Positions 4,118 to 46,531 are shown, numbered from the stretch's first letter. The stretch is 64,000 nt of DNA from Eledone cirrhosa (GCA_964016885.1 OZ024740.1:184016001-184080000); one strand, 5' to 3'. Numbers and translations: made by a program. The notes: generated by a model not told the origin, from the letters alone.

Positions 4118-4168
4118 TATATATATATAAGAGGGTGTTAAAGTTTGCTTGAAGCACTGTGAAATGTG

Positions 4169-4546
4169 TAAAATACGTAGTTAAGAAAGCCACAACAATG
4201 CGGAGGGACATCTCGAGGTAGGAAGTGAATGATAGATAGGAGAAACAGGTGAAAGTGAAAATTGAGAGAGACAAAGATGAAAACAAAACAAAGGTAGAAG
4301 GGTTACCGTAGTGGAGATTTATTCCCAATATTTCGGGCTCACGCCCATCAACGGATGGAACTTTCCCCCGTTGATGGGCGTGAGCCCGAAATATTGGGAT
4401 TAAATCTCCACTACGGTAACCCTTCTACCTTTGTTTTGTTTTCATCTTTGTCTCTCTCAATTTTCACTTTCACCTGTTTCTCCTATGTATCATTCACTTC
4501 CTACCTCGAGATTTCCCTCTGCATTGTTGTGGCTTTCTTAACTACG

Positions 4547-4553
<7 letters not shown>
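4169..4553. repeat. Near-perfect palindrome (arms 4169-4354 and 4368-4553, 13-nt spacer), PLE-terminus-like foldback
   Basis: Arms are reverse complements; ORF-track peptides 4104-4328(-) and 4355-(+) mirror each other. Flanked by (TA)n. Confidence 0.93.
4364..4399 (+). ncRNA. Minimal type I hammerhead-like motif with variant core (mirror copy on minus strand ~4323-4360)
   Basis: TCCC-CCGTTGA-T-GGGC(GTGA)GCCC-GAAA-TA-TT-GGGA: stem I, stem II hairpin, GAAA and a palindromic minimal stem III. Core differs from CTGATGA at two positions. Confidence 0.5.
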
Positions 4554-4634
<81 letters not shown>

Positions 4635-4764: not shown

Positions 4765-4944
4765 TATTTTATCGTATGTATATGTATATATATGTATATG
4801 TGTATATGTATATATGTATATATATATATATATATATGCATATATATGTATATATATATGTATGTATATATATATATTATTTTTTATATATGTGTGTGTA
4901 TGTGTGTGTGTTTGTGTGTGTGTGTATGTGTGGGTGTTTGTATA

Positions 4945-5093
4945 AATGTAGTATAGTATATTTTATAATATACTGTATGTTTATTTAAAAACATCTCGAA
5001 GACCATTCGCTACGGACTTTTAAATAAACATACAGTATATTATCAAATATACTATACGTACATTCATATAAACAACGCTATTTCAGAGCACCA
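4945..5093. repeat. Foldback fragment of the 26-kb repeat family
   Basis: tatagtatattttataatatactgtatgtttatttaaaa is followed by its reverse complement; ends in cgctatttcagagcacca, the reverse complement of the unit start ggtgctctgaaatagcg. Confidence 0.8.
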
Positions 5094-5313
5094 ATAATAA
5101 TAATAATAATAATAATGATATATATATATATATATATTTGAGAAAAGAGTCGGAGTCCCGACGGCTAGAACCAAACAGTTTGTTTCTAGCTGTCGAAACG
5201 GCCGGAGCTCAGCCGTCGGTGTCCTGACTATTTTCCTATTATCCTGTCTACTACCCTAAGTATCGAGTGCTCTGGTGCGTTATAGTCCACCTGGTTCCTT
5301 ACCACACTTTTTT

Positions 5314-6188
<875 letters not shown>

Positions 6189-6211
6189 TATATACATATA
6201 TATAAATATAT

Positions 6212-6326
6212 ACACACTTCTCCGTATAAGACAAGAGCTGAAAAATATCTTTTAACATGTTAAAATATCCCCCACACACGTACAGACACATTCCTACTGA
6301 CCAACCCTCTACCACGAATTACTCTG

Positions 6327-6372
<46 letters not shown>

Positions 6373-6877
6373 TTATCTTAATAGGCATTTGAACCGTCAA
6401 CAGGCTGCGGTTCGCACACACATCCCTGCTGACCATTATCACAACAACGAACTTCTTTACTACTACTACACGCACACACACACACACACATATTTGTCTT
6501 GAAAGACTTATTTTTCAGTGACTTCTCAATCAGCCGAGACAAGCCTACATTTGGCGCAAAATCAATTTTTAACATTCACATGACCTCTACCGACCAATCA
6601 AAATTCTTTAGACCACAATAATTTTTTCATACATCTGGAGCCACTTTTTTTTACATAAAACAGCTAGAATTTTCAAATCTAATCAGATTAGAGCAAACAT
6701 CACGGACGCTCTATCTCAAAATTATTTTTGAAAAGCATTAGAAATGCGCAACCGGTAAAACTTAAAACCAAAACTGAATACTAACCAATACTATTACTAA
6801 TTTTTACTTATTCCTAATTAAACTATTTTTCACTGGGAACAATTTGGCAGCATTTTCTTTTCCTTTTACCAATATAT
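6212..6877 (+). repeat. 5' pseudo-LTR of the Penelope-like element
   Basis: Direct repeat of 11066-11750 (cttctccgtataagacaagag ... ccttttaccaatatat). Confidence 0.92.
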
Positions 6878-6939
6878 CATAACTCGTGTGTTACACCTCT
6901 ATTCTTTTAAATATCATATCCTCACACGAGATACAGAAA

Positions 6940-9900
6940 ATGCCAACAAAATCAGATACAACTCTTATCAACACAAATGAAGAGATTCTACAGGAACTCA
7001 AGAAAATCAACACCAACCTATCTGTGCTGGTCGACAAACTTGACTCCACAAATGAGGAAACCGTCACCGGATACAAACCCTCCGAAATCGACGATAACAT
7101 ACAAAACCTTTGCGATACTTTCCAAATAATGTTCACTACTACCAACCCAGGAAAAACCAACGAAGTACAATATGAGATTGATTCATACGAAATGAAAATT
7201 CGAACAATTCCAAAATGGAACAAATCCCTCAGAGACAGAAAGTTCTCATTCTGGAAGATGATACAAAATCACAACAAAGCGGAGATATATGAAAAATGGC
7301 TTAACTCAACCCCTCTAACTCTCCCCCGTAAAATACAAATAAAGTCCATTCCAAATGAACCTGAACCTCAAAGACACCTTAGGGAAAGAATGGCATTGGA
7401 AAAAATGAAGACAGAAATTGAACATCTTAAATTGAGGGCCCAGACAAATGAGGATTAAATCAAAACCATCGATGAAGAGATCCTCCTGGAAATCAACAAC
7501 AAAACTGAAGGCCCCAAGGTAGAGAAGATCTCTAAATTATGGAAAGGGGACTGCAACAGAGAAGAACTGAAATCCTTCAACGCTGGGAAAAAAGGGCCGC
7601 TTAGTTCCTACACTATGAATCGACTTTTCAAACGGATTACACCTCCAAAAACCCGTACATAAAAATAGGAAAACACATAACTGAACCGCACAACAACTTC
7701 GCAAACCCCCCAGCCACTAATAAAAGAAGAAGGAAGCACCACACCGAAGATGAACTTCCCAACCTCGCTACCATAAGAAGGAACAAAAACACTAGAAATC
7801 ATCTCCCCCAGAATGACATTTACAACTTTCCCCCTTCAAGGAGACACCATACCAAATCACTAAACTACTACGCGGATGCCTCATCGTCAAACATAGGGAA
7901 AAGATACCACCACCATGATAGATGTAACAACTACCCCGCTTCAAGGGGACAGCAAGGTAATTTAGATTTTCTCAACTCTCACTTCCACAATACACAACAA
8001 ACCCACACCACACGATACAACCAACAACGTAGGCTACCTATAACACCACAATCCAACATGGCACATAGAAACACACATCCATACTCGCAGTACAGGAACA
8101 CCCCATTCAATCTACAACCACGAACCCGAACCACATTTTACAACAACAAGGAATATGACAAACACAGGAGACCACTTAACATCAGCAGACAACCCCTCTA
8201 CACCAACCATTTTTTAGACACAGCACACAGATACAGGCAAACAAAATACCACAAGACGGAGGAGAAACCGAGAGTAATAAAAATTATCAATCTAACTAGT
8301 GCAGATCCAACACCCAACCTTATCAACTTACTCTCCAAAGGTCTTAAATTCACACCGACCCCACTACGTCCTAACTACTAGGAAATGAAGGAAGACATCA
8401 CAGACCTCTGTAGAAAGTTACGACTCAGTGAAGAACTATTCGACCAGTACAATGAAGATGAATCATTAGCCAGAAATAGAAGCAATTACACCCCATCAAA
8501 AGGTAGAATTAAAATCCTGGACCAATTCTGTGAATACATCACAATCTTCCCTTACCAACACTTGCACAAACAGAAACACAAGCCAAACCTCAACAAGAAA
8601 TAATGGGAAGAATTAAATAGATTAAAAACCGACAGAACCATTACAATTAAAGAGGCTGATAAAGGGAGTACAGTAGACCTAATGGAGACAGAATTCTCTA
8701 TCAACTTAGCGCTCTCCACTTTGGAAAACGAAACATACTACGAAAAGGCTGAACACTACAATCAACAGATAATTATGAGAAATCTAAAAACTCTGATCAA
8801 CCAATACAAAGAAAGACTCACTAACAAGGAATTCAGCTTCATCACAGACTTCACAAGTAAATCCAGCCTTTTCTACGGTATCCCTAAAGTAGATGAAAGC
8901 GAATTAATAAGTATGGCATGCAATGGAGCCACCGACATAGTCATCAATGTCCCCTCACCCAATGATCTCAAATTAAGACCTATAATAGCAGGCCCCACTT
9001 GCGAAACCCACCGCCTTAGCAACTTCATTGTTACCCTTCTCAAGCGTTTTCTCAAACACATCAAAAGCTATATAAGGGACGACCTAGATATTCTCAATCA
9101 CATCCCTAATATGCCCCTTTCTGAACAAACCCTACTAGTGACGTTCGATGTAGTCAACCTATACTCCAACATCCCCCACAATCTAGGAATAGAAGCTATC
9201 CAATTCTGGCTGGATAATTACCACAATTAACTCCCACAACGCATCAAAAAATAATTCGTGATAGAGAGACTCAAATTTATCTTGGAGAACAATTACTTCG
9301 TTTTCAATAACAAACCCTACAGGCAGAAATCTGGGACCGCTATGGGAACGAAAACAGCCTCCACTTATGCTAACCTAGTCATGGGATACCTGGAAATCAC
9401 CCTCTACACTAAAGTACTAAACAAATTTGGAAACACTCTCCACTTACACATAGAAAGGAACTGGAAGCGATATCTAGATGACTGCTTCATCCTTTGGAAC
9501 GAAAACATCGAGAAACTTAAAGAATTTCACACCCTTACAAATGGGCTCAACACGAATATTAACTTCACGATGGAATACAGCCATCAACAACCCCCCTTCC
9601 TCGACATCCTCATTAAGATCCATAACAAAAAAATCGAAACAGACATATACTACAAGCCCACAGTCTCCAAGCAATATCTTCCTTTCAACTCTTGCCACCC
9701 TAGATACGTTAAAATTAATATTCCCTACAACTTGGCCAAGAGAATCTGTACTATAGTCCTCAATAAAAACACCTGCTACTTACGGCTGCAGGAACTAAAG
9801 GACACACTCATAGGCAGGGACTACCCTGCATCACTAATTGACAATGGAATCCAACGTGCCCTAAAACTCAGTACCCAGGACCTTTGACACCCTAAAGTAA

Positions 9901-10525
9901 ATCAACCGAAACTAAAAGCTCTTCCATACATCTCCACACACAACCCCTCGACAATGAGGCCTTTGACACCATCCTCAAGAACATCCCTGTATTGAAAAAG
10001 GACCATAGAATGAACCAAATCCTACGAACACACGATATCATAAAGGGCAAAAGACAATCGAAGTCAATGAAAAACATCCTAACATATGCCAAAGTACTGC
10101 CAACCACAACAACGAAAACCACAGTAAAACAATGCGATAGACCCAATTGTGGCATATGCATCAACCTAATAGAGGGTTCGGAATTCTATTTCAAAGAAGG
10201 ACAACGTTTTATAGTAAAACACAATTTCACATGCGCATCAGAAAATCTAATATACGTATTAACTTGCTCAGGTTGTCGAGAACAACACATAGGCCAGACC
10301 AAAAACAGCCTCCGCAAACGCATGACTGTCCATAGATCCCAAATTAAAATACGGGAATACAGGAAAATACCACTGAGCGAACACATGTGCCGCCCAAAAT
10401 CCTCCCAATTTCAGAATCTTTCCCCTCTACAAATTTAAAGATAATGCCACCCACACCCAGCGCATCAGCAAGGAATCTCACTTTATTTACAAATACGGAC
10501 CCCGTCTAAACACTTCTCCCTAAGA
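6940..10525 (+). pseudogene. Disrupted PLE coding region: long N-terminal helical/low-complexity segment, RT, Zn-finger linker, GIY-YIG endonuclease
   Basis: ORF fragments 6886-7458, 8058-8381, 8385-8603, 8682-9230, 9258-9887 and 9992-10438 are broken by stops and frameshifts. Confidence 0.88.
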
Positions 10526-11065
10526 CGAACCCACAACATACACACGTCAACATACATACCTACATCAGCATACATCTCTATCCACATATAAACACACATG
10601 TTCGATGGTGCAACACAAATATACACAAATTTGCATACCTTTTGATGTCTATAGATATAAACGTGCCCACACACACACACATACATATACGCACACATGC
10701 ATTGCACACTGATGGGCACATAGATATTTGTACACAAGTATTCCAATACGGCAATGCCTAATGGATTTCCCTTGCAGTACGTACAATATGGACACTCACA
10801 CACACCTTGGTATTATGCCAATACTATATATCATTTCACACCTTTTATTATTAAGGTTTTTGATGTTCTATTGAGAGAATCGTTTTTACTGAAAATATCG
10901 AATAATGTACACCATTGTTACCAGTATCACAAACATATTGCCCCACCCCCCACACAGACATTCTCACACACACACACACATATATACACACACACACATA
11001 TATCTATACACACACTTACACACGCGTACAATAACTTACAAAGAGACATATACACACACACACAC

Positions 11066-11175
11066 ACACACTTCTCCGTATAAGACAAGAGCTGAAAAAT
11101 ATCTTTTAACATGTTAAAATATCCGCCACACACGTACAGACACATTCCTACTAACCACGAATTACTCTGCTACAC

Positions 11176-11253
<78 letters not shown>

Positions 11254-11741
11254 ACTTGTCTTAATAGGCATTTGAACTTTCAACAGGCTGCGGTTCGCAC
11301 AACATCCCTGCTGACCATTATCACAACAACGAACCTCTTTACTACTACTACACACACACACATCTATTTGTCCTGAAAGACTTATTTTTCAGTGACTTCT
11401 CAATCAGCCGAGACAAACCTACATTTGGCGCAAAATCAATTTTTAACATTCACATGACCTCTACCGACCAATCATAATTGTTTTGACCACAAGAATTTTT
11501 TCATACATCTGGAGCCACTTTTTTTACATAAAACAGGTAGAATTTCCAAAACTAATCAGATTAGAGCAAACATCACGGACGCTCTATCTCAAAATTATTT
11601 TTGAAAAGCATTAGAAATGCGCAACCGGTAAAACTTAAAACCAAAACTGAATACTAACCAATACTATTACTAATTTTTACTTATTCCTAATTAAACTATT
11701 TTTCACTGGGAACAATTTGGCAGCATTTTCTTTTCCTTTTA

Positions 11742-11750
<9 letters not shown>
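11066..11750 (+). repeat. 3' pseudo-LTR of the Penelope-like element
   Basis: Direct repeat of 6212-6877, ending in (TA)n. Confidence 0.92.
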
Positions 11751-12146: not shown

Positions 12147-13388
12147 TATCTCTAATTAATTTGATTTCCTTGTCTTGAAAAGAAGAATATCCTATATCTT
12201 TTAAAGATAATATCAAGAAGTACACGGTGGCATAGGAAATAACTCATATTCAAAGAATTTATGTAAAATATTATGAAGAACGTACTTTAGTATAGACTCA
12301 GAATCATTCCTCACTGAAAAATTTAACCGGTTTGAAAATATACTCAAAGGGTTTTAATTTGATATAAAACTCAATGGTAATAAATAATTGTTTCCACTTT
12401 AGGCACAAGGCCAGCAATTAAAAAATAAAAAGCCTTTTGCTCACTTAATGTTGCAATGTATTTAGCAGATATTAGTTTTCGATTTGTTAAACATATAATA
12501 GTCGCAGGATTATTTCGTTTCTGTAATAATAGATCACTTAAATTCACTAGCACAGGATAGAGGAAAATCATTCTCTTGAAACTGCTGTAAACGATTGGAC
12601 AATTCATTCCTGATTTGCTGGAAAATATTTATTTGAGATGATTGCTATAGTAAAAACATAATCTACCAAAAGGTATAAATCCCTCACAAATTGGATGAAT
12701 TGTTACACTGAAATTGTAGTTGACCCAAAATATTCATTGGTTTCACTTGTAACTTTCTAAGGTGAAGTTTCTGTAATAGCTTTCATTTGTTAGAGAAATT
12801 GTTAGAGAAATCCAAAAGCAGTGTGGCGCATGAACAATACTTTCGTAAATCCGACATTTGCACGTAACTTTATTCTACGTCAGTTTTCGATTTTAGAATG
12901 GATTTAATACGATTTAGAAAGTTACATTATATTCCCCTTGATGGAACCGAATAAAACAATATTGCTCAACAATGTATAACGTGAATGCAATTTTCACATA
13001 TGTTGCTTATGATGACTTCATACATACAGTTAGCCGCATCAAACATTCAAATACCTAACCTATTAAATTATTACAATCTAATCACGTTTCTTTAAACAAT
13101 TGTATGCCGTGGAATCTTTGTCTAATATCAAGACAAAAAATACATTTCCACCACATAGTCGCACCAATATTTCATTAGTTATGAACAAAATATATTGTTG
13201 GAGAAAGATTTGGAAGGCAGAAATCGTTTTATGACTAAATAATTTTAGTTGTAAAAATGCTAATTTATTTGTAACATTAAATCCATCCTTTACACTATGT
13301 AAATCAAGGCAGCTTGTATTTAAAGTATAAAGTACTCAGGACGGCACCCGCATGACTTATTCAGGAGTCAAGAGTCGATGGATAAATA

Positions 13389-13560
13389 TAATTGTTTCTA
13401 CTTTAGGCACAAGGCCAGCAATTACCCAGTGCATTACTGGTACTTTATTTTATCGAACCCGTAAGGATGAAAGGCAAAGTCAACCTCGGCGGGATTTGAA
13501 CTCAGATCGTAAAGGGACGTAACTATGCTGGAAAGCATGGCGTCCGACCCTCTATCGATA
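13389..13560 (-). mobile_element. SINE, same family
   Basis: Reverse complement of the 11959-12146 consensus. Confidence 0.88.
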
Positions 13561-15481
13561 ATGATGGGAAACAAGACAGCAAATATAAAATGTGTGCAAG
13601 TCCTATAAGATTGGTACGGAGAATTGTTGGAAGAAACTACAACCAGCAATTTGATACAGAAGGTAACAGCGCAAGAAATTATCAAATACTCGTTAAGCAT
13701 GATGAGAGCTTGTTTCCCATGACCACAGATTAAATCCACCACCCACACAACATTATTCTCATATCATCATTATTAACTTTACAGATATAATGAAGATGAC
13801 GCACTTCCAGGAATGTACTATTGTCTGATATAACCTCATCGCCTGTATTATGATAAATGGCAATGAGTGGTTTTGAAGATTTGCTGCAGTTCTAGTGTGT
13901 TTTCATATATTATATATAACTTTCCGTGCTGTCTGTTCGTTAATGCTGTAACGGAAGCAGATGAAATTGCAGCTGCCGCTTATGTTGACATAACCAAAGG
14001 GTTTACATCTATTCAATAAAATATTCCCTGCTGGATATTAAATATCTCCTGCTGTGTGATTAATAACATTTGAACAGAAATATTTCTTTCGAATATTCAC
14101 AGGAAATTCCTGTTTCAAAATCCATACCTGTTTTATTATCGTTTGTGTATTCTGTATACTTTTCCTTGGGTTCTTCCTCCTTCGGGCATTTCCTGATTTG
14201 AATACTAATTATTTGCCAGGTTTTGCCGCCATATTCAAGTCTGTACATAATTTGGTATTTTTCCAAGTTTTGGGAACTTTAACACTTAACTCGTTATAGC
14301 AAATATGTTTCAACAATCTGACCAATTAGCCTATTGATATAAAACATCGTATTTTATTTAATTAAGTATAAAACTAGTCAACAGATTCACATTTATATTG
14401 AATATAACTTCGGAATATGTAATGTTCACGATTTCGTTTTTCTCCTGGGCATTAAAGTTATATGGATGCGCACGACTGCTACTTCATATTTTTTCTCATT
14501 ATTTTCTGTGTTAACAGTTATAGGCAAAGTTTCACGTTTTGTGCAGGACATGTCTAAAAATACCTCTTTCCCCTGCTTATGACCTTCAATTCCGTTACGA
14601 AAACATATTATTTAAAAGACAATTGCAACTTTGGTGTAATTATTGCGATATTTATAAAGAATTTCAAACGTTTCAATTGCATTACCACAGTCAATTTGCT
14701 TTCCTTTTCTTTAATTATTGTGTCCTTGAGCAAGACACTTTATTTCAAGTTCTTCCAGTCAGTGGGCCTTAGAATGCTTGACAGAGTCCATCTCCTCTCC
14801 AAGGTTTAAGTCCATCACTAAGTTTTGCCGTCCAATAGAAGTAGTTTCAAGAGGTGTGGCTGAAAATGCTTTCGGAACGAATAGTGAGTCAGGCGATAAC
14901 CATTGTACCCGTCCATCCCTAAGAATGCCTCTGCCGGACTTCAGATTATTCTCTTTACCTGAACACTCCGTCTAGAGTGGCCCTTCAAAGACTAGCTCAA
15001 CCAAATGCGGGAACGTCATTAATTGATTGAGAATAGAATAAAAATGATCCATTTTCCGATTGGTAATTATTTTATCGATCCTGAAAGGTTGAAATGTAAA
15101 GTTGCTCTCGGCGGATTTCGAAGTCATAAAATAAATATATTTAACTAAATATCACAAAGCCTTTTGACTATTGATCTACTAATATTAATAATTAACAGCC
15201 GCCATTTTGTGTGACACTCTTACACTTCTGTCGATCTACAACTACTATTATGTTTGTCCCTCTCCACATTCTGCTATTCACAGTCTTCATTTTGATTGAC
15301 TATTCCAATACCGCATATTCTCAACAATCATGTTGTCTAATACTCTATAAATTATGCCAATCAACTGTCTTTGATGCGAAAGAATATTGAAGAAATGTGT
15401 ATTAACTATTTTCTTAACTCGCAACATTATAGAAAACAGAGAGCAAAAAGAGGAAACAACGCCATATTGTTAGTTAATTTA

Positions 15482-16450: not shown

Positions 16451-17025
16451 CCAATTTAGGTGGTCTTATTTGTGTCAGTCATCAATCTGTTACTTTCTCA
16501 GGCTCGGGAAGACTAGAGATGGCCTTTATTCACCTCATCATAGCGACATCACTGGGTTGTGAGAGTCTTCTTGGGAGCTATAGGTGTGACCCGTTTCTCA
16601 TTTCCCCAAAATATTTACCGCTGTTTGTACACGGTTGCTTATTCGTCCGGTAGGTTCCTGCTTGTATCACAACAGACCATCATATCTGGTGACTGTATCA
16701 CTATCTGCCTCCTGTGACCCGTTCTTTAGCAAAACAGATCTGCCGAAATATAAACTAATACATGTAGAACTACATTCAATGCACACACCTATACATACAT
16801 ACACCTACATTCACACTCACGTCCACACACAAATGCCCATGCACGTACGCCCCCCTCCCCCCACTCATATATATATGGATATGAAGAAAAATAGTAGTAC
16901 AAGACAGCTATATACATCCCTAGAGACAGAGAAAGATGCCCTCTACGCCTATGAGATTATATGTCTAATTTGTCGTGTGCCAGACGTCTGAGTTACCAAT
17001 ACACAAATACATGTATATATATATG

Positions 17026-17211
17026 TAATTGTTTCTACTTTAGGCACAAGGCCAGCAATTACCCAGTGCATTACTGGTGCTTTATTTTATCGACCCCGTA
17101 AGGATGAAAGGCAAAGTCAACCTGGGCGGGATTTGAACTCAGATCGTAAAGGGACGTAAGTATGCTGGAAAGCATGGCGTCCGACCCTCTACCGATACTG
17201 CCAATCCACCG
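17026..17211 (-). mobile_element. SINE, same family
   Basis: Reverse complement of the family consensus. Confidence 0.9.
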
Positions 17212-23590: not shown

Positions 23591-25860
23591 TAATCACCTC
23601 AATTGAGAATGAATGGAGAATCATAAAAACTATTATTGAAAAGGCTGCTACTGAAACTCTGGGCTCAGAACCAGAAAACACCAAGACAGGAACTGTGAAA
23701 AATTATGTTATGATCACTGATGCCATTGAAACCCAGTGACGAGCTCAGATAGAGTGTGACGCGCAGAAATGCTCAAAAGCTGAAAAATAGACATGTTTCC
23801 AAGAAGCCAAGGCAAAAGCAAATGCTAAAACCTTTTACAAGAAGAAAAAAAACATGTGGTATTAAGAATGATCACAAAGAATCCACACATATGCAGACAA
23901 CAAAGGTCAGAAGGTCTTCTATATAGCCAGCAAGCAACTCTATGGACAGACAACTTCATCAACATGCGTACACCTAACAACTAACAAGACGACAGTACTA
24001 ACGGACGCCCTGGACATTCTAGAGAGTTGGAGGGAGCACTTTGCAAGTTTCCTGAATAAGACCACGAACATCACTGTTGACTATCTGAAAAAGGCTCCAC
24101 AACGTCCGGAACTGTACTGGATATCCTTACCACCAATCCAGAATGAACTTCAGGTATTTGCTAGGCAGATAGCATCAAACTAATCTCCCGTACCTGACAG
24201 CATCCCCCTGGAATTGTTGAAGTACGCTGGAAAACATTTTTCAAAGAAGATTAATTATGCTTATTTTGGATATTGGGAACAGAAACAACTGTTCAGTGAT
24301 TGGAAGGTTGTACACATAATCACCATCTACAAAAAATAGATAAAAGTTTATGCGGCAACTACATATGAATCCCGCCCCCCCTCTCCCACCTGGCAGAAAC
24401 TGCTTTAACAAGAATAATGTTAATATATTTACAGATGCATACAGAGCTCATACTACCAGTGTCCCAACGTAGATTCCACTCCAACAAAGCGTCTATATAC
24501 ATGATCTTCGGTGCAACACAGATACAGGAAAACAGCAGAAAACATCAAAACCCATTTACGTATATCAATGTTTGTGATCTTGAAAAAGCATTTGATAATA
24601 CAGCTAGACGCAATGTAGAAGGTATTGGAACGGTTTGGATGTCTACCAACAATGCTCTCCATTATCAGATCATTCAACGATGATATGGTGGGCAGGGTGG
24701 GGCACAAAACCTACACCGAAACATTCCCGATCATATGTAGCTTAAAACAGGGCTCTGTCTTGGCACTTCCCCTTTACTCTGCCTATTGGTATTTAGCAAC
24801 TATGATGTGTGAAGTCCCAACTGACAGCCCTGGAGTAGATCTGCTCTACCGACATTGTGGGGCCTCTTCAATACTACCCGCTTTCGATCTAGGAGAAACA
24901 CCACGGCCTTCAAAGTTACCTACTTTCAGTTTGCCGATGATATGGCGCAGTCAGCAGTGCGGAAGATATTGAAAGCTCTGTAAGGAATTACACAAACGCA
25001 TACCAGTAATTTGGCCTCACAGTAAATGTGGATAATACTAAAAACCTGACCTACCTGAACCAACACCACAGGATGAAATGGACCTGACTCCAACATCAAA
25101 ATCCGAGGGGTGGAGGATGCAACATCAATCAAGGACATCGAATGTAAGATACAGGTAGGAAGTGCTGCATTTGCGTGACATAACAAGAGAGTCTTCCAGA
25201 ACAGAGATTTGAATAGGGAAAGAAAGCTCATGGTGTATAAAGTTTTGTATGGAAGGGATATGTGGACGTTGTACGGGAAAGATATAAAGAAACAGGAGGT
25301 TTCATGAACATCAAGTGGCAGGATAAAGCGAATAACCCTCGATGCAGTTTTCAGTAGAAGAGAAGCATCAGAATCACCACAATAGTATAACATTTGTTAT
25401 GGACGGGACATGTCAGACACATGAATAAATGCCGGCTACCCAAGAAAGTTTTCTACCATGACCTGATTGAACGAAAATGCCAGCTTTGTGCAGCAAAATG
25501 ACACTACAAAGACAAACTCAAGCGAACACACAAAGGCTTCAACTTGAATCACAACAACTGGGAATCTGATTCGCTGGACAGGGAGCTTTGGATGAAGAAG
25601 GGGAAAACGGGCACAACGTACGTTGAGTTGGCGAGGAAAGATGCCCTTGAGACGAAATAATCCGATTGAACAAAGCCCTGCAGCCCTATTCACTGCCACA
25701 TATTCAATGCCGAAACTGCTCCCGACTCTGTCGTGCACAGATTGGAATAAGTCACCTATGTCTCCATAATTGAGAGAAATTGATCCTCTATACTCGGACA
25801 TGGATGCAGAGCGAAATACCAACCCAAGGGCAGGATTGATGGAGTCATTCTACTCACATA
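23588..25860 (+). mobile_element. Highly degenerate RTE/BovB-like LINE
   Basis: Fragments WREHFASFLN, SPVPDSIPLE, DLEKAFD, KQGSVLALPL, FADD, WTGHV..M...RLP; many stops and frameshifts. Confidence 0.8.
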
Positions 25861-26127
25861 GCTTAAGAGGGTGTTTGTATGATTGCAAATGAATCGAATG
25901 TTATTATTAATATTCGAAAAACTCAGATCTACGATATATATATATACTATTGACTCTTCATAATATATATATATATAAAATTAGAAATGGTGCTCTGAAA
26001 TAGCGATATATATATGAAGTGTATTTTGCAATACTCTGTATTTGTAATTAAAAGCATTTCGAAGACCTTACGCTATTGTTTTACAGTAGTGACAGTCTCA
26101 CATATTTTAAATTTTCAGCAAACAAGG

Positions 26128-26189
26128 GGAGATAAAGCTGACAGAGCTCTGTTTCGTACTTTCTGTTACTTATCAAAGCTAAGTACTCC
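26128..26189 (-). ncRNA. Type I hammerhead ribozyme, U3-A8 core variant (copy 1)
   Basis: GGAG tactt AGCT-TTGATAA-GTA(acagaaag)TAC-GAAA-CAGAGCTCTG-TC-AGCT ttat CTCC. Confidence 0.72.
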
Positions 26190-26449
26190 ACCTGTCTGCT
26201 GAAAACCATGAATGTTTGATTGTTATAGAATTCTAGTTGATAATTATGAACTGATTATACAGAGCGGTTGCCGGTCAAGCAGAAATTGAAAATTAGAATT
26301 GGTGCTCTGAAATAGCGATATATATATATATGAATGTATATATAGTGTATTTTGCAATACACTGTATGCTTAATAAAGAGCATTTCGAAGACTTACGCTA
26401 TTGTTTTAGAGTAGTGACAGTCTCACTAACTTTACATTTTCAAACAAGG

Positions 26450-26511
26450 GGAGATAAAGCTAACAGAGCTCTGTTTCGTACCTGTTGGTACTTATCAAAG
26501 CTAAGTACTCC
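26450..26511 (-). ncRNA. Type I hammerhead ribozyme, U3-A8 core variant (copy 2)
   Basis: GGAG tactt AGCT-TTGATAA-GTACC(aaca)GGTAC-GAAA-CAGAGCTCTG-TT-AGCT ttat CTCC. Confidence 0.75.
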
Positions 26512-26879
26512 ACCTGTCTGCTGAACATCATGAATGTTTGATTCTTATAGAATTCTAGTAATAATCATGAACTGATTATACAGAGCGGTTGCCGGTCAAG
26601 CAAAAATTGAAAATTAGAATTGGTGCTCTGAAATAGCGATATATATATATGAATGTATATATAGTATATTTTGCAATACACTGTATGCTTAATTAAAAGC
26701 ATTTCGAAAACCTCACGCTATTGTTTTAGAGTAGAGACAGTCTCACTTACTTTACTTTTTCAGAGCACCAATTCTAATTTTCAATTTCTGCTTGACCGGC
26801 AACCGCTCTGTATAATCAGTTCCTGATTATTACTAGAATTCTATAAGAATCAAACATTCATGATTTTCAGCAGACAGGT

Positions 26880-26941
26880 GGAGTACTTAGCTTTGATAAG
26901 TAACAGAAAGTACGAAACAGAGATCTTTCAGCTTTATCTCC
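26880..26941 (+). ncRNA. Type I hammerhead ribozyme, U3-A8 core variant (inverted copy, stem III damaged)
   Basis: GGAG tactt AGCT-TTGATAA-GTA(acagaaag)TAC-GAAA-CAGAGATCTT-TC-AGCT ttat CTCC. Confidence 0.62.
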
Positions 26942-28606
26942 CCTTGTTTGCTGAAAATTTAAAGTAAGTGAGACTGTCACTACTCTAAAACAATGGCATA
27001 AGGTCTTCGAAATGCTCTTAATTAAGCATACAGTGTTTTGCAAAATACACTATATATACATTCATATATATATATATATATATTTCTTTGTTATTTTGTA
27101 CATATTTTTAAAACAAACTAAAATTGTTAAACTAATATCTTATGAAAAATATATAAATTTTTGTTGTAGTGCTTAGATTATCTTGCTATCAGGCATTTGA
27201 AACTAGGTGAGCTAGAGCCTAACAACGGCAATACCAATCATAATGATGATGATACAATAACATTAATAATTATTGTTTGTCTGTAATGCAAGTATTTGAT
27301 AAAACAAACGTTTTCATTTTATTTTAATTTTTCCACTTTTTGAAGTTAATGTCAGCTTAGTAATTTCAGCATTGTGCAACGTTTACTAGTATTATTTGAA
27401 AAGGCAGATTTGAACATTATATGCCCCCTATCAATCGAAGGTTTTATATATTCTGATCATATTCTCAGACCTGCCAACCTCCAAAAACCAAAACGGCGAG
27501 TATCATGACAAAACGTGCCCCAAAACGAGGAGAAATGACGAAGAATAGGCGGAGTTTACATAATGAAAGCTATGCCCAGTTTCACAAGAGAAGACGCATC
27601 TCAGCCAGTCCAAAGTGTGTGGGAGATCTCCCTATCGGACGAGGACATTTGACAGGTCTGTATTCTTACTCGTTCCATTACCATTTGCCGGTTTCATGTG
27701 TTTCAGATGTCGAGGTACTCATTTATACTGTTATGTCAAACACTGCTACACAACAACTAGAAACCAATGAATCCAGTGATAGCTTAAGCAATTTCCTCCT
27801 GTCAAGAGGCAAGCTTTTGAATTGATTTGATTTGTTTAAGTAATTCAAAAACCATCTTATAACAGATTTCTGCTGTTAATTTTCTTTCAGTCTTCTTTGC
27901 ATCAAAATATTTAATAGCAAAAAATTGAACACAATTCTAAAATCAGAAAAGAGAGAACATTATTCTTAATTAAAGAAACGTTAAAAGTTAAAGAAGGAAA
28001 ATAAAATAAAAACTAACAAGCAAAAACCCAACAACATCTAAAGAAATAAAGAAATTAATGAATGAATTAAATGAAAAATAAATATAGAAAAACATTAAAA
28101 ATAAAAAAATTCAGTTTGTAAAATGTAAAGTGAAGTTCTGTTTGGCTCTGATGCTATCTGACATTTCCCGACAAAACAAATTAAACTTACAAATTAGACA
28201 AATTAAACAAAAATGACCACAGCATCAGGCATTAACAATTTGCTCTGGAGTAATGCTATTAAAATCAAATCTAAATTTTCTGTCTCTCTTCTCGATATCA
28301 TCAGGGTAGTGTTAAATTACAATTTCTTTCTGGAATTGCAAATTTCAAATCCAACATCTTACAAAAAAGGCAAAAGAAAAATAAATAAAAGGAAGGAATG
28401 AAAATAAGGAAAAAGAAGTTTAAAGAATTGAAGAGGTTTCATATTGGTTTCTAAATGCAAAACGCGTAATATGCTTTTTTCTACTTAAACTTTTCAAGGA
28501 TAATTTAATTTTCTTTAAGAAATTCCATATTAATTACACGCTAACACTAAGCTAAAGAAACAAAATAACTATCATTTTCTGTGTTTGTGGTTTATATAAA
28601 TTAATA

Positions 28607-28791
28607 TAATTGTTTCTACTTTTGGCACAAGGCCACCAATTATCCCAGTGTATTACTGGTACTTTATTTTATCGATCCCGTAAGGATGAAAGGCAACGTT
28701 AACCTCGGCGGGATTTGAACTCAGACCATAAAGGGCCGTAACTCTTCGCTGCAAAGCATGGCGTACGACCCTCTATCAATACTGCCGATCC
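28607..28791 (-). mobile_element. SINE, same family
   Basis: Reverse complement of the family consensus. Confidence 0.88.
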
Positions 28792-31002: not shown

Positions 31003-31186
31003 CGGTGGATTGGCAGAGTTGGTAGAGGGTTGGGCATGCTTTCCAGCATAGTTTCGTCCCTTTACGATCTGAGTTCAAATCCCGCCAAGGTTAACTTTGC
31101 CTTTCATCCTTACGAGGTCGATGAAATAAAGTACCAGTAATGTTCTGGGTAATTGCCGGCCTTGTGCCGAAAATAGAAACAATTAT
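31003..31186 (+). mobile_element. SINE, first of a tandem pair
   Basis: Matches consensus, subtype ttccagcatag..cgtccctttacgatctg. Confidence 0.9.
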
Positions 31187-31199
31187 GTAGTGAATATAT

Positions 31200-31379
31200 G
31201 GTGGATTGTCATTATCGGTAGAGGGCCGGACGTCATGCTTTGACGCATAGAGTTACGGCCCTTTCCATTCTGAGTTCAAATCCCGCCGAGGTAAACTTTG
31301 CCTTACGGGGTCGATAAAATAAAGTACCAGTAATGTACTGGTGTAATTGCTGGCCTTGTGCCAAAAGTAGAAACAATTA
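31200..31379 (+). mobile_element. SINE, second of a tandem pair
   Basis: Matches consensus, subtype tttgacgcatagagttacggccc. Confidence 0.9.
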
Positions 31380-33375: not shown

Positions 33376-36179
33376 ATTATTATTAGTAGTAGTAGCAGTA
33401 TTGCTGTTAGATTCGTTTCCCCTAGGAACAAATGTATAGGAAAAACATACTGTAATGGTGATGCCATTCCAAGAACATTAACATCATATATGATATGAAA
33501 TGGCTTCTTTGAATAGGGGATTGAAACTACATCAAAGATTCAGCCTTTAGAGTTTTTGCCTCTTGCTCTGCAGTGGGAATGAAATATTGATCCCTTTTAT
33601 TTCGACAGTAAGATAATTTCCTGGTGTGTTAACGGCTCTTATTTAAAAGATCTTTGATGAAGTAAAGCTGAAATTGAACTCTACCGGATTTGAACTAGAA
33701 CTGTGTTGGCTCAAGTTATACACTAGAAGCTATTTTATTTCATGTAGTCTTGTGCTGTCTGAACTATATCACTCTAGAAGTTACAAATACACATTATACA
33801 TATTGCTATAAAAATCAACTACTAATGAACATTAAAATCTATGTAAGATACGCAATGCTTCTGTAACATCTAAATGAGATGATTGATCTATATGTGAAAG
33901 TATATGAGATATTTAATTTTATGAGAAATTCAGCTTCAGTCAACAAATATTTTGTGATCATGTAAAATACTTTGAAGTCATTCCAGTCTTATCTTATATA
34001 ATTTATACTAATAACAAAGGTGGATTGAACATGTGCTTTAACTACTATGTGGTGGTCAGAAGTGCTGTATTATCAGTGTAAATTTCTCATAAAACTATCA
34101 CTTCACAAACAAATGAACCTTTGTGCATGTGTGTGGATATGCTGGTCACAAACTGCTGGATGCCAACTATAAATCAAGATGCCAATAAAAGCTATGGCAG
34201 TTGCTACTTTAAGTCTGATAATGAAAGTTTAGTTCTGAAACGTCTTGCCACACCAATATATATGCATACTACCAGGCTGACATGTCAGATGCTAAGAGTA
34301 ATTAATATATGATTTAATGTCAAGCAGGAACAGGAAAGGGATTTCTAAGATAAACGATTTTCCTTCATCGCATACACATTTTCTTTCTTGTAAAACAAAC
34401 AAAAAGTCAATATTGAGTATAAATATTGTAGGGGATTTCCGTGTAATTTTATTTAGGTGTCAGCAAATTAAAAATGAACGCATTTCATTTAGAATAAATT
34501 TTATTCAAGATATTTAACATTGTATTTTATAATTTAAAATGTTTAACACACAAGTATAAACGTATTGAGTATAATCTTAATGAGTATTACATTTTAAACA
34601 AGATTAGTTATTGAAAACAATCCAAGATTAGCTATTGAAAACAATGACATAATCAAAATCTCTAACATAAGGAAGAAATGTTATGAAGATCTACAAATTT
34701 ATGCATCATAATAGAAATAAAAATGTTTATAACAAGTGGAATTTCAATGAATTTCACTATAAAACATTCATTCATAGAATATTCAAATCATCATCGTAGC
34801 ATCTCTGCAATATCACACTGCCACCATTGCAAATGACATAATCAACTGTGGGTACATAGTCAGGTGATTAGCGCTAGTCATTAGTGGGATTTGGATTCTT
34901 AGAGATAAATTTGAACTTGGGATGCAAAGTGCTGGAACAGATATTGCAAGGCATGTTGTCTGACATTCTACTACTTTCTTTATTAACCCCTAAAGTTGAG
35001 ATTTGAACTCACAATGCGAAGTACCAGAATAGGTACCACGTGATATCTCATCCAATGCTCCAGTAATTCTTCCCAGTCCAGTTCTCTAGACTGCTATTTT
35101 ACTTATCAACATGAAATGCATTGTTGACTTCCCCTGAATTTGAATACAAGGCACAGATTACTAGAATAAGTACCATAAAGAATTTTACACAATATGCAAA
35201 AGATTAGTGACTCTGCAAATCTGTGGAGTGTGTATGGAACTGTAGTGGATTGTTTTAATAGAAATGCTACAAGCTAACAGAACAAAAGGGATCCAAAGAC
35301 TATATGTATTATATTGCTGGGATTATTCTCTGTTGCGATCAACTAACTAGAAATATTTTAATCCTACCACAGTATATATATATCAAATATAATGGGCAAA
35401 TCTAATATAATATAATAAATGGAACTGACAGTGTTTGAAAAGTCGCTTTTGGCAAAGGAATGTTGGAATAAAATAAATTACACATACACACAAACAGAAT
35501 GATGGAATACGTAAGTAGGTGGGTTAGTTTGTTGGTAGATAAGTATGTGAGAACGTAGGTAAGTGAGTATGCAAGTAGATAGGTGTGGAGGGAAGCTATG
35601 AGGCATTTCAGATTCGTACTAGCAAGACTAATTATTTGATTAGAGAGAGTATGCTGAAACTGAAACCTTTATATAGGGACGTAGTTATTTTAACCATTTC
35701 AGAGCACAGCTTTTTATATATTTCCATGTTTTTACATATTGCCATGTTTTTGAAAAAGCCCATTACTCTATATTTACTATTGTATTTTGATGGTAAAGGA
35801 TTTACCTCACATAATTATCTTACATAATATCAAAAAAGGAGAGTTTGATATTATTTATTTTGAGAAGAGTACCTTAACATCAGTAGGGGCAGCTGGTTAT
35901 GGCCTGTTTGACCAGAAAGAAGTGAGACAATTATGGTCAGATACAGCTGATTTAAATTCTAAATGGTTAAAGGAGAATTTACACAGTTTTCAGCTGCATC
36001 CTTGACATCTATTTTGGGCAATGCCTGCATACGATCTCACCAAATATATGAGGTTACATACATAAGCACACACACACACACAGAGGCAAACACACACGTA
36101 CATCTCTCTCTCGCTATATATATAAATATATAAATATATATGTATATATATATATACATATATATATATGTGTAGGAGG

Positions 36180-38380
36180 TGAGTTTTATTGTAGTACAAT
36201 AAAGCAATGCAGATATCGGATAAGAAGCACTCTACAGTTTGTAGGACTACAGTTTGTTAGCATCTTTGATGCTAACGCCAATTACTATAATAACGCACTT
36301 TCTAAAGCCGGTTATCCAGATAAAATCAAATATAGTAAAGAAACAAATTCTAGAAAAACTTACAGTAGAATAATTAATCATGATCATTCCAATAACTTTA
36401 ATAAAAGACCTAGATACAAAAACATAATCTGGTATAATGTTCCTTTCTCCATCTCTATTAATAAAAATATTCCTAAATTATTTTTAGTGCCTTAAATAAA
36501 TGCTTCCCTCCCTCACATATCTATAGTAAAATATTTAACAAACACACCATCAAATGTTCTTATTCTACATCCTCCAATATTTCCAACATCATCTCTAAAC
36601 ACAACAATAACATACTAAATACTAAATCTCTTCCTTCCAACATTGAATTTCATAATAACAGTAATAGTACTCCCGACGTCATTGTAAACCCTAGGCTAAC
36701 TTCTGTAAACCCAAATACAACGTCAAACACAACTTCGCTAAATGTTCATAATCCAACTCTAAATCAAGAAACTATTATTCCTATTATTCCTATCGCAAAC
36801 AACTTCTCCAATCCAATTCCTTGTATAGATAACACTAGGTCACTCATTAATAATCTCTCTAATTGCAACTGCCGCATTAAAAATAAATGTCCTCTCAACA
36901 ACCATTAAATATACCATCTTTTGGAAGAAGGTTTCTTCTGCGTCCTCATACTTGAACAGCTCTCTATCTAAAATCTGTAATCTCTGCCTAAATGAAAAAT
37001 TTACCATTATCTCTAATCTAGATTCTATAATAAATAGACGTACAGATTTGTTTTCTATCTGCCTGCATAAATTCCATAGGACTTTTCACAAAGTATACAG
37101 CTAATATTCAATTCTTTATGAATTTAGAATATTTTCTCAAAGGCACATATACATACACCTCTTTAAAATATACCCATCTTCCTACCTTACTTCAAATGGC
37201 ATTATACACTCTATAATACTTGTTTACTCATTACACTCATTCTATCTTCACCTTGTAAAATCCTTCATAACATATACATTTGTTTTTTTGACGTTAGAAT
37301 ATTCATCCGCAATTATTATTATTTTTTTCTCTCTATCATAAAACTTTTTAATCTCAATTTCATCCTTAATTTATTATTTATTTCTCCCCATCAACGAACT
37401 CATTCTTAATACATATTAACTCTTTCTTCGCACATATTATCAATTCCTTCAATATACAAACCTTAACTTCCCATTATTTTTCTCAAATCATCTAATACAC
37501 AAACCTTAATAATTTTTTAATACATATTAACTCTTTCTTCGCACATATTATCAATTCCTTCAATATACAAACTTTAACTTCACATTATTTTTCTCAAATC
37601 CTTCTACACACAAACCTTAATCATTTTTTCTCTTCGTTAATTTTGAAATTGCCACAATACTTATAAACATACACCTTTTGACGTTAGAATATTCATCTGC
37701 AATTATTATTTTTTCTCTCTATCTTCATACATATCAACACCCTTTCTTTCCTCGTACATTTCCTCGTACATTTACTTCGTTAATTTTCAAATTCTTTTAA
37801 TTTATACATTATCTTCCAACGGTTCTCAACCTCTCTATGTAAAACAATATATCTTTTCTCAGTTATAAAACTATCTCTTTCTCTCTATCACCCATCTCTC
37901 CCTCTCCACCTTCACTCTCATCTCATCCCCTTTTTTCATCCCCCCCCCCCCCCCTCCTAAATAAAATATTTTTTCCTCGTACATATTTTTCCCTTCGTTA
38001 ATTTTCAAATTCTTTTAATTTATACATTATCTTCCAACGGTTTTCAACCTCTCTATGTAAAACAATATATCTTCTCTCAGTTATAAAACTATCTCTTTCT
38101 CTCTATCACCCATCTCTCCCTCTCCACCTTCACTCTCATCTCCTCCCCTTTTTCATCCCCCCCCTCTCTAAATAAAATATTTTTCCCAATATCACACATC
38201 AATCTAAAACCACTTTTCATATGTTGATTTAAAACTGCACTATCCACAAGTGTTTTTTAGCCTTCATATCATGTTCTCCTGTTTTATCTGATGAAAACAC
38301 AAATATTATTGCATGATGATGTTTGTTTTTGAAATGCGCATAATAAAATACATGGAACTCCTTTAACCATCTTTTGATCT

Positions 38381-44800: not shown

Positions 44801-46344
44801 GAGCTAATAGAAATGAGATTTAAAATACAATTATATTACAACTTTAAATCTAAATGAAAAATACACATTTTTCAATATCAACACTTTTCAATAGTATCTG
44901 ATATCACCAATCTTATACGTGGGGTTGTCATCTTTTCTCTAATCATTATTAGCAATGAATGCTATGAGTTAGGCTTCATTTCAGTCATACATCCAGCAAT
45001 TAAAATGTGTCAACTTTTTTCATGGCTTCATTCTAACTGAACTTATACAGTGTAGAGTAAAATAGAGTTTTCTTATTTTTCAGAATTGAAAACATGTCAA
45101 CATAAAAGCTAAATATTTCTTAAATCATAATTAGTCATAATTAAAATGGAAGTGGAGTTTGATAATGTGATCCTGATTAAAGTGAGATGGTCATAGTTGG
45201 AAGTTATATTACAGGCATGCGCAAAGACAATTGGCGTGTAGTTAACAACAAAAACAACAATGAAATCATAGCTTATACGTCTAGATTTACACGACAAAAA
45301 TGAATAAAACTGTATTTCCCCCTGCAAGAATTATTTAATTATTGAATAAACAGACGTTATATATTATTTGTAATTTGTTTACTGATTTCAGAAGGATTTC
45401 AATTTTACATAAAATTCAAATCTTATGATTTGTGGTTTATTGCTCTCTCTCACCCTCTCCCTTCTATCACTCTCTCACTTGTTGTCTCTCTTTCCTTCTT
45501 TTACTCTATGAACCCTATATAATGTCTCTTATTCTACCTTTTGCTTTCAAAGTATTCATAGAGTGGTTGGAATTAAACAAGCATTAGAGAAACTTGTTGA
45601 AGTTTAACGTAATGGAAACTCATTACATAAATATATCTAAACATAATGTGTTGATTAACTGCTGCATGGTAAATAGTGTCTGGATGTTGGCCCACATCAC
45701 AGGCATAAAATATGGGTGCAATTTATATTTGAGTATTTACAGTATATATTCCACAATTCACATCTACCGTTAGCTGAAATGGATGGTTACATACCATTCA
45801 AACTCTCTCGTTAATTTATGATAAAATTCAACATTATTTCATTCATTTTAATGTAGCTACTGATGCAAATATAAGCTTTGTTTTGAAATTTAAAATGTTT
45901 TCCCCTTCAACTATATAATCAAATAAAGATCAAAACCAATAAAATCATTGGCTGAAATTTTAACAATATTTTTATTACTGATCTGAATTTTGACCAACTG
46001 TAAATGATGTCCATAATGTTATGAAATAATGGAAATGTATAGAGAAATATTAATGGTTCATAAAAAAAAAATGAGAAGAAAAGAAATGCTTGAATCATCT
46101 AAAGAAATGCTAATAAGCCTGAAGTACAACAAAGACTTTCTTAAGGATAAACAATGGTTTAAGATACTAATCACAAAATTCAATCACTTCATTTTGAGAT
46201 TCCTGTCTGGAAAATCAATTACAGTTTTTGATCAGTGACAAAGCTGCTATGGCATTGTAGATGGTTCTAAATCTATTTTCTATGAGAAGTGAAACCTTGC
46301 TTATAATGAGAATATTAAAAATAGTAATTTATAGCAATAATAAT

Positions 46345-46531
46345 AATTGTTTCTACTTTGGCACAAGGCCAGCAATTATCCAGTGCATTACTGGTACTTT
46401 ATTTTATAGACCCCGTAAGGATGAAAGGCAAAGTTAACCTCGGCGGGATTTGAACTCGGAATGGCAAGGGCCGTAACTCTATGCGACAAAGCATGGCATC
46501 CGACCCTCTACTGATACTGCCAATCAACCGC
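46345..46531 (-). mobile_element. SINE with target-site duplication
   Basis: Family consensus; TATAGCAATA(A/T)TAATAAT on both sides. Confidence 0.9.

What the first reader, a model, noticed from the sequence alone, without database searches (positions are those of the whole stretch)
25977..27070. Retrozyme-like ~320-bp repeat carrying a hammerhead with a compensatory U3-A8 core (UUGAUAA)
Seen: every complete unit contains AGCT-TTGATAA-[stem II]-GAAA-CAGAGCTCTG-TH-AGCT, plus a distal GGAG/CTCC helix after an internal loop. This is a type I hammerhead fold with a palindromic stem III. Known: the hammerhead core has a C3-G8 Watson-Crick pair that tolerates a U3-A8 swap. Animal non-LTR retrozymes are 150-400-nt tandem repeats with one type I HHR per unit; they yield circular RNAs and are thought to be PLE-mobilised. 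Inference: this is a non-coding, self-cleaving retrozyme family that CUGANGA-based searches would not detect; the palindromic stem III suggests cleavage as a dimer between adjacent units. I cannot confirm that it is undescribed.
Basis: partly seen in the sequence, partly recalled or inferred. Interest (0 to 1): 0.9.

Follow-up and report, generated by a model that had tools for sequence, protein, structure and literature searches.

The report
Hammerhead repeat riding Penelope retrotransposons
A 320-base non-coding repeat with thousands of copies carries a hammerhead ribozyme motif whose core base pair swaps between two versions, and its insertions show the footprint of Penelope retrotransposons, so it is likely a self-cleaving RNA parasite that would be copied by their enzyme: a known kind of element with an unusually clear record of how it likely moves.

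Summary
The hammerhead is real. The locus is one insertion of a dispersed ~320-bp non-coding family (3,477 exact hits of a 25-mer). It is not a plain tandem: two units plus a truncated one, joined head-to-head to an inverted unit, with both ends in (TA)n. The 3-8 core pair covaries inside the family: of the first 100 unbiased hits, 50 are U3-A8, 46 C3-G8, 4 mixed; a tree needs at least 3 switches; all stems covary. Insertions end at two fixed sites 26 nt apart (90 of 99 arms), one at each end in 29 of 34 inverted insertions. This is the Penelope-like (PLE) 'tail' signature, and two young autonomous Neptune-type PLEs here show the same pattern. Ends do not fall at the cleavage site, so templates were circles or uncleaved multimers. 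Those Neptune PLEs carry over 25,000 minimal U3-A8 hammerhead motifs. Verdict: a non-LTR retrozyme (non-autonomous PLE-type element). U3-A8 cores are published (Perreault 2011; Schistosoma PLEs, Cervera 2014), and about half the family is canonical, so the core alone is not new. Cleavage, expression, circles and the helper are untested. Interest 0.5.

The parts
25977..26005 (-). PLE-type 'tail': sequence between reverse-transcription start sites E1 and E2; outer end E2 (about 25980) runs into (TA)n
   Evidence: E2 end seen in 45 of 99 arms
26006..26315 (-). unit A, complete; its 3' end holds the internal TA tract (start site E1) and two or three small hairpins with compensatory changes
26112..26205 (-). 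hammerhead A: stem I 26180-26177/26139-26136, U3 26176, A8 26171, stem II, GAAA, palindromic stem III, predicted cut 26140|26139 (GUC), long outer helix
26316..26636 (-). unit B, complete (91% identical to unit A over aligned columns)
26441..26523 (-). hammerhead B: U3 26498, A8 26493, predicted cut 26462|26461 (GUU; the family norm is GUC); aligns end to end to Rfam Hammerhead_HH9 at 17 bits, far below its 52-bit gathering score
26637..26762 (-). unit C, 5'-truncated just downstream of the hammerhead; no ribozyme
26755..26763 (.). head-to-head inversion junction with a shared ~7-nt microhomology
   Evidence: read; overlap of the arms
26755..27070 (+). unit D, inverted, nearly full length; ends at E1 in (TA)n with no tail
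26864..26959 (+). hammerhead D: U3 26893, A8 26898; stem III damaged by two changes, active fold +7.4 kcal/mol, probably dead

Best explanation
This locus is one insertion of a dispersed, non-coding 320-bp repeat family that carries a covarying type I hammerhead motif and the two-ended insertion pattern of Penelope-like elements; it is likely a non-LTR retrozyme whose RNA is predicted to cleave itself, would be ligated into a circle, and is likely reverse-transcribed into (TA)n DNA by a Neptune-type Penelope enzyme supplied in trans. Steps: (1) tandem units are transcribed (inferred, no RNA data). (2) Hammerheads cut after GUC, probably helped by pairing of two palindromic stems III in adjacent units (fold predicted; selection on the fold shown by covariation). 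(3) Monomers are ligated to ~320-nt circles (from known retrozymes; inferred here). (4) A PLE protein nicks both strands of a (TA)n target and starts cDNA at two internal sites 26 nt apart, 144 and 170 nt downstream of the cut site, one for each DNA end (ends shown; enzyme inferred). (5) Copying runs through the ribozyme and past one unit length, stops at scattered points, and the two cDNAs join head to head (products shown). (6) Inserted copies decay neutrally; a few grow into local satellite arrays (shown). The 3-8 pair works as C-G or U-A and has flipped at least three times in the family. I put the element's identity at about 0.9 and the circular template at about 0.6.
For: Copy number: 3,477 exact hits of a 3' 25-mer, control 0; 3,300 hits of a hammerhead pattern, control 4. 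Covariation at 3-8: first 100 listed of those 3,300, by my count 50 U-A, 46 C-G, 2 C-A, 2 U-G, where about 50 mixed are expected if independent; 252 aligned units: 202 U-A, 33 C-G, 1 C-A, 1 U-G, 15 other or gapped. All 30 canonical-core loci fetched align to the unit at 66-88%. Across four subfamily groups 9 of 9 invariant core columns are fixed and 3/8 switch together, while 16 of 57 other ribozyme-region columns are fixed. On 13 hand-picked units, 14 of 44 pairs change on both sides against 8.2 shuffled, 94.7% of cells pair. Tree without the ribozyme columns: starred branches force at least 3 changes. Insertions (66 loci, 61 insertions, 99 arms): 45 end at E1, 45 at E2, 9 elsewhere; 77 of those 90 run into TA; 34 are head to head and 29 of the 34 pair E1 with E2; 64 of 90 arms cross the cut site; 6 of 90 5' ends lie within 5 nt of it (about 3 expected). 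Units in one insertion share subfamily alleles (differ at 18 of 345 tandem and 23 of 403 inverted sites, equal to background decay, against 35% between loci). Two autonomous RT + GIY-YIG families with a CX4CxxC linker, intact 784- and 775-aa frames, (TA)n targets and the same two-ended pattern exist here. Literature: two adjacent internal start sites make the PLE tail (PMC11167929); tandem, inverted and tail layout (PMC8557442); retrozyme circles (PMC7229834).
Against: No cleavage, RNA or circle was observed. For single units the lowest-energy fold is an inactive one (active fold +3.6 kcal/mol for A and B; medians +2 to +9 by subfamily). The dimer advantage appeared in 1 of 2 dimers that could be scored. 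No nucleotide homology links the unit to either candidate helper: the one high score was a TA-tract artefact; only a short terminal motif is shared with N2. Homogeneous linear multimers explain the ends as well as circles do. Long arrays are not star-like, so they are no evidence for rolling-circle copying. In the one PLE tested in vitro, hammerhead cleavage was not needed for insertion and needed protein (PMC11167929); 8 of 9 Xenopus retrozyme dimers did not cleave. Rfam gives no gathering-level hit.
Confidence: 0.6

Rival explanations
1. Same non-autonomous PLE-type element, but the template is a linear, uncleaved multimer transcribed from a tandem source locus. The hammerhead serves another step (release from host transcripts, RNA turnover, protein binding), and circles are by-products or absent.
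For: PLE protein uses unprocessed RNA in vitro and ribozyme mutants still insert (PMC11167929). The window's two direct units are only 91% identical. Arms of at most about 2.3 units in the sampled insertions fit dimer or trimer transcripts. Monomer folds are predicted to be inactive.
Against: Tandem units of one insertion are no more different than inverted arms or unrelated copies at non-diagnostic sites (6.1, 5.6, 6.4%), as expected if identical at birth. The core has been kept across 30% divergence, which calls for a role in propagation. Related retrozymes accumulate mainly as circles (PMC7229834).
Confidence: 0.27
2. The unit is the orphan pseudo-LTR of an autonomous PLE that I did not find, and most copies are 5'-truncated ends of that element.
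For: PLE insertions are mostly 5'-truncated and carry hammerheads in their pLTRs. Xenopus retrozymes match pLTRs. Only two PLE families of this genome were examined.
Against: Upstream of a unit's start lies another unit, an inverted unit or flank, in all 61 sampled insertions. Arrays of 12-17 units hold no ORF over 101 codons (L091). tblastn with the N1 protein hit 4 of 130 unit loci (3 places); the one next to a unit lies downstream of its end and has its own different pLTR. The ribozyme is the canonical type with HH9-like loops, not the minimal pLTR type.
Confidence: 0.09
3. A DNA-level satellite or MITE-like repeat in which the hammerhead is a dead relic or a look-alike.
For: Some loci are satellite-like arrays with shared private variants. 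Genomic copies decay in the core as fast as elsewhere (94% match in both). No Rfam hit at threshold.
Against: Fixed 3' ends with scattered 5' ends are a reverse-transcription signature. Double-sided changes in all three stems and in the 3-8 pair need selection on RNA structure.
Confidence: 0.04

Closest known systems
Non-LTR retrozymes of animals (Cervera and de la Pena 2020, PMC7229834; Li, Clavereau and Pollet 2026, bioRxiv 10.64898/2026.07.22.740005)
   Same: 150-450 bp non-coding repeat, under 50% GC, one type I hammerhead per unit, monomers to multimers, thousands of copies, coexisting with PLEs; palindromic stem III that allows dimers.
   Different: About half of the copies have U3-A8. 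Mostly dispersed 1-2.5-unit insertions with the PLE inverted and tail layout, which the parts of these papers that I read do not describe for retrozymes. No sequence match to a pLTR was found. Expression and circles not shown.
U3-A8 minimal hammerheads of Schistosoma mansoni Cercyon PLEs (Cervera and de la Pena 2014, PMC4209133)
   Same: Same core covariation, about 1,300 hits reported, PLE context, missed by the standard descriptor.
   Different: Those are minimal ribozymes in pLTRs, mostly single. Here the ribozyme is the full canonical type in a non-autonomous unit, with C3-G8 sisters in the same family. The minimal U3-A8 type also occurs here, in the autonomous Neptune PLEs.
Natural U3-A8 hammerheads (Perreault et al. 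2011, PMC3088659)
   Same: Covariation of positions 3 and 8 seen in nature; stated there to be active in vitro.
   Different: Several scattered examples there; here thousands of copies and repeated flips inside one family.
Poseidon PLE of Anolis carolinensis (Frangieh et al. 2024, PMC11167929) and PLE insertion anatomy (Craig et al. 2021, PMC8557442; Arkhipova et al. 2013, PMC3846280)
   Same: Two internal start sites that define a tail at one end, AT-rich target, partial tandems, inverted 5'-truncated copy with junction microhomology.
   Different: The element here codes for nothing and its tail is 26 nt; the candidate helpers are Neptune-type.
Non-autonomous Chlamys PLEs such as MRC1 (PMC8557442)
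   Same: Non-autonomous, head-to-tail multicopy PLE-type insertions.
   Different: Those lack canonical hammerheads and share 3' sequence with their autonomous partners.

Membership tests
Type I hammerhead ribozyme | Core U4 G5 A6, A9, G12 A13 A14, A15.1-U16.1, H17 | tested here: met
   (9 of 9 columns fixed across four subfamily groups)
Type I hammerhead ribozyme | Watson-Crick pair between positions 3 and 8 | tested here: met
   96 of first 100 hits paired; 235 of 252 aligned units
Type I hammerhead ribozyme | Three stems, stem I open, with compensatory changes | tested here: met
   pair 10.1-11.1 is a mismatch in some subfamilies (4 of 13 rows unpaired)
Type I hammerhead ribozyme | Match to an Rfam hammerhead model at gathering score | tested here: not met
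   HH9 17 bits against 52; 0 hits in 7 loci including canonical-core ones
Type I hammerhead ribozyme | Mg2+-dependent site-specific self-cleavage | not testable with these tools
   needs in vitro assay
Non-LTR retrozyme | 150-450 bp non-coding unit with one type I hammerhead, in tandem copies, low GC | tested here: met
Non-LTR retrozyme | [quoted passage not shown] | tested here: met
   window units A and B; 25 tandem pairs
Non-LTR retrozyme | Expressed as monomeric linear and circular RNA | not testable with these tools
   needs RNA from the organism
Non-LTR retrozyme | Coexists with autonomous PLEs | tested here: met
Non-LTR retrozyme | Sequence relation to a pLTR (found for 24 of 57 Xenopus families against Repbase TEs) | tested here: inconclusive
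   none to N1 or N2; other PLE families of the genome were not examined
PLE-mobilised element | Fixed 3' ends, scattered 5' truncation, partial tandems | tested here: met
PLE-mobilised element | Inverted 5'-truncated copy head to head, tail at one end only | tested here: met
   34 of 61 insertions; 29 of 34 with one E1 and one E2 end
PLE-mobilised element | Copied by a named PLE protein | not testable with these tools
   helper inferred from the shared target and end pattern only
Autonomous PLE | ORF with RT and GIY-YIG endonuclease between pLTRs | tested here: not met
   no such ORF upstream of units
tRNA-derived SINE | tRNA-like head | tested here: inconclusive
   ARAGORN finds no tRNA gene in 25000-28000; a decayed head or A/B boxes were not searched for

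The most novel reading that the evidence does not exclude
A circular-RNA parasite with no sequence kinship to its helper has acquired the Penelope two-start-site signal by structure alone. One Neptune enzyme dimer primes both ends of a (TA)n break from the same 320-nt circle, one subunit at each start site. Host-wide, U3-A8 rather than C3-G8 is the dominant hammerhead core (over 25,000 motifs in the helpers, including an unreported A13C form), and the parasite has flipped its core repeatedly between the two.
Probability: 0.3. Interest if true: 0.72.

Novelty: new variant of a known kind. Interest (0 to 1): 0.5.

Why it matters
That animal retrozymes are moved by Penelope enzymes from circular RNA has been proposed since 2014-2020 on co-occurrence and pLTR similarity. 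This family leaves base-level predictions: two start sites, a (TA)n target, one site per DNA end, two intact candidate helpers. That makes the proposal directly testable with the published in vitro PLE assay. It is also a natural replicate experiment on the hammerhead 3-8 pair, and it shows that CUGANGA descriptors can miss most hammerheads in a genome. The core variant and the element class are not new.

Tried and rejected
RNA evidence: no RNA holder listed. The three runs laid are contigs of unknown kind from one sample; they show only that the family is present and that GUC is the usual triplet. Rfam: no gathering-level hammerhead hit. Parent pLTR: blastn of the unit against N1 loci found only one nearby separate insertion; the high subfamily-B versus N2 score was a TA-tract artefact (23 of 128 background flanks scored as high) and was rejected. 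Shared flanks among unit loci: 112 matches, which I took as other repeats nested in the same (TA)n tracts without classifying each. Pile-up of 5' ends at the cut site as a sign of cleavage in vivo: 6 of 90 against about 3 expected, not accepted; an apparent pile-up near position 178 was partly an artefact of a deletion in the query copy. Long arrays as rolling-circle products: rejected, shared variants exceed a rough expectation 2- to 7-fold. My first hammerhead scan of the Neptune pLTRs required GAAA and missed the N1 motif. One dimer (L038) could not be scored because one core no longer matched. The protein search confirmed RT + GIY-YIG relatives but gave no clade names. Earlier findings of the scan: three look-ups, nothing. 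Lunse et al. 2017 on PLE hammerhead variants was seen only as a reference entry; it and the supplements of PMC7229834, PMC4209133 and the 2026 preprint were not seen and may already list cephalopod or U3-A8 retrozymes.

Full report
Observation. The window lies in a 3.0-Gb animal assembly; from recall of its SINEs it looks cephalopod-like, which no call establishes. At 25977-27070 there are three hammerhead-bearing units and one truncated unit of a ~320-bp repeat. Unit D is inverted, on the plus strand, with two changes in stem III. A strict type I descriptor finds A, B and one unrelated motif in the window, against 1 hit in 30 dinucleotide shuffles. The domains fold with z of -3.3 to -5.3. Rfam gives only Hammerhead_HH9 at 17 bits, but the alignment is end to end and shows the same loop 2 and stem I internal-loop letters as that canonical model.

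The family. A DNA search gave 2,631 candidate places, 40 scored. Exact patterns gave 3,477 hits near the 3' end, 477 over the core (95 of the first 100 listed are TTGATAA) and 998 over stem III. A short relative at window 4941-5101 led to subfamilies about 70% identical, also U3-A8 but with different stems. A canonical-core pattern gave 1,897 hits, and all 30 loci fetched align to the same unit at 66-88%. So the repeat has both cores. With positions 3 and 8 left free, 3,300 hits were found; of the first 100 listed I count 50 U-A, 46 C-G and 4 mixed (the pattern leaves out subfamilies with G or A at position 7). In 252 aligned units, after dropping 3 junction chimeras, 202 are U-A, 33 C-G, 2 mixed and 15 decayed or gapped; this set is enriched by my own searches. 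A tree of 81 units (32 of 179 long subfamily-A units and all 49 others), built without the ribozyme columns, needs at least 3 changes at starred branches; recombination between subfamilies could add to this count. Across four subfamily groups the nine invariant core columns are fixed, 3 and 8 switch together, and only 16 of 57 other columns in the ribozyme region are fixed. On 13 hand-picked units and a structure drawn from them, 14 of 44 pairs change on both sides, including two hairpins near the 3' end. Single genomic copies decay in the core as fast as elsewhere, so selection acted on the transposing RNA, not on the inserts.

Insertion anatomy. In 66 loci chosen by the 3' 25-mer (first places on contig C1; four long arrays left out; one duplicated locus counted twice), there are 61 insertions and 99 arms. 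Ninety arms end at one of two sites, E1 (end of an internal TA tract, 45) or E2 (26 nt further, 45), and 77 of these run into (TA)n. The 5' ends are scattered. Thirty-four insertions are head to head, and 29 of these have E1 at one end and E2 at the other; the window's locus has this layout. Craig et al. describe this tandem, inverted and tail layout for PLEs (PMC8557442, passages; also PMC3846280, passages). Frangieh et al. show that the tail is the stretch between two internal reverse-transcription start sites, and that both DNA strands are cut and extended (PMC11167929, parts 1-2 of 4). Neither end is the ribozyme cut site: 64 of 90 arms cross it and 6 of 90 5' ends lie within 5 nt of it. 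Cleaved linear monomers therefore were not the main template. Units within one insertion share subfamily alleles and differ only at the background rate, which fits a circle or a homogeneous multimer. Long arrays of 12-17 units show shared private variants and probably grew locally as DNA.

Candidate helpers. The window itself holds a broken copy of an RT + GIY-YIG element at about 6200-11750. Its family N1 has 31,122 candidate places, many with a 784-aa open frame. A second family N2, 56% identical in protein, has 12,900 candidates and 775-aa frames. Both have a CX4CxxC linker, the Neptune mark named, insert in (TA)n, and show two 3' ends with one at each side of inverted insertions. Their terminal repeats carry minimal hammerhead motifs with U3-A8: 25,659 exact hits, all of the first 100 listed U3-A8, about 40 of them the N1 form with C in place of A13. 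Ribozyme and 3' ends have the same polarity as in the unit. The unit has no detectable homology to either terminal repeat; it shares only the last 7 letters of its E2 end with N2. Copy-to-copy identity is similar in all three (92-96%). The helper is therefore inferred, not identified.

Monomer or dimer. Stem III can close as 4 bp with a tetraloop, so a monomer is possible, but a competing pairing of the stem I strand with stem III is 3.6 kcal/mol more stable in units A and B. In the window's B-A tandem the free minimum-energy fold already has the double-hammerhead topology, and the fully active dimer costs 2.8 against about 8 kcal/mol for either monomer; in a second, more mutated dimer there was no such gain. 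These energies ignore tertiary contacts.

Comparison. The element meets the sequence criteria of non-LTR retrozymes (PMC7229834, parts 2-4 of 6; bioRxiv 10.64898/2026.07.22.740005, parts 1-3 of 5). U3-A8 covariation is reported in nature (PMC3088659, passages) and in about 1,300 Schistosoma PLE motifs (PMC4209133, parts 1-3 of 4). Eight literature searches listed no paper whose title or abstract is about this family; in the texts I read there is no U3-A8 retrozyme and no tail signature on a retrozyme. The giant squid genome paper only counts 235 Rfam hammerheads (PMC6962438, passages). PMC6765202 and PMC7151607 were seen as passages. Lunse et al. 2017, Repbase and Dfam, and all supplements were not seen, so absence from print is not established.

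Verdict. A real, selected hammerhead in a non-autonomous PLE-type retrozyme: a new variant of a known kind. The headline feature, the U3-A8 core, is known. What adds value is the repeated flip of the pair within one family, the clean two-site insertion record, and intact candidate helpers in the same genome. Interest 0.5.

Noticed in passing
window 6200-11750 (+); ribozyme motifs at about 6725-6760 and 11598-11633: Broken copy of a young, very abundant Neptune-type Penelope element (N1; RT, GIY-YIG, upstream ORF, terminal repeats). Its repeats hold a minimal U3-A8 hammerhead motif with C in place of the normally invariant A13; whether it cleaves is unknown.
   Followed up: partly
L229, L234-L263, L270-L274: Second Neptune-type family N2 with a clean minimal U3-A8 hammerhead (GAAA kept) and a 62-nt tail. 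N1 and N2 together give 25,659 exact motif hits, so U3-A8 may be the commonest hammerhead core in this genome.
   Followed up: partly
window 4941-5101: Short inverted insertion of the sister subfamily B of the same repeat (3' end only, no ribozyme), ending in an (AAT)n then (TA)n tract.
   Followed up: yes
window 38280-38350 (+): Canonical C3-G8 minimal hammerhead motif with palindromic stem III, about 40 nt before a (TA)n tract and downstream of decayed frames at 36052-36908 that resemble a PLE endonuclease region (recalled; Pfam found nothing). Its fold is no better than shuffles.
   Followed up: partly
L175, L184, L196 and other subfamily B loci: Subfamily B hammerheads have a C-A mismatch at 10.1-11.1 and, in some, a longer non-palindromic stem III that would favour monomer folding.
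   Followed up: partly
L091, L093, L094: Satellite-like arrays of 12 or more units; L093 has a higher-order period with an internal deletion repeated several times.
   Followed up: partly
window 4164-4558 and 60239-61680: Two near-perfect inverted repeats (191 nt, 97%; 506 nt, 98%). They may be head-to-head insertions of other PLE-type families; not examined.
   Followed up: no
window 1341-3740, 47555-49763, 53252-55365: Decayed non-LTR retrotransposon frames (RT-like by recall), several related copies.
   Followed up: no
window 13382-13563, 17019-17200, 28601-28782, 31035-31318, 46336-46517 and others: An abundant short interspersed repeat on both strands (families D8, D9, D12, D14).
   Followed up: no
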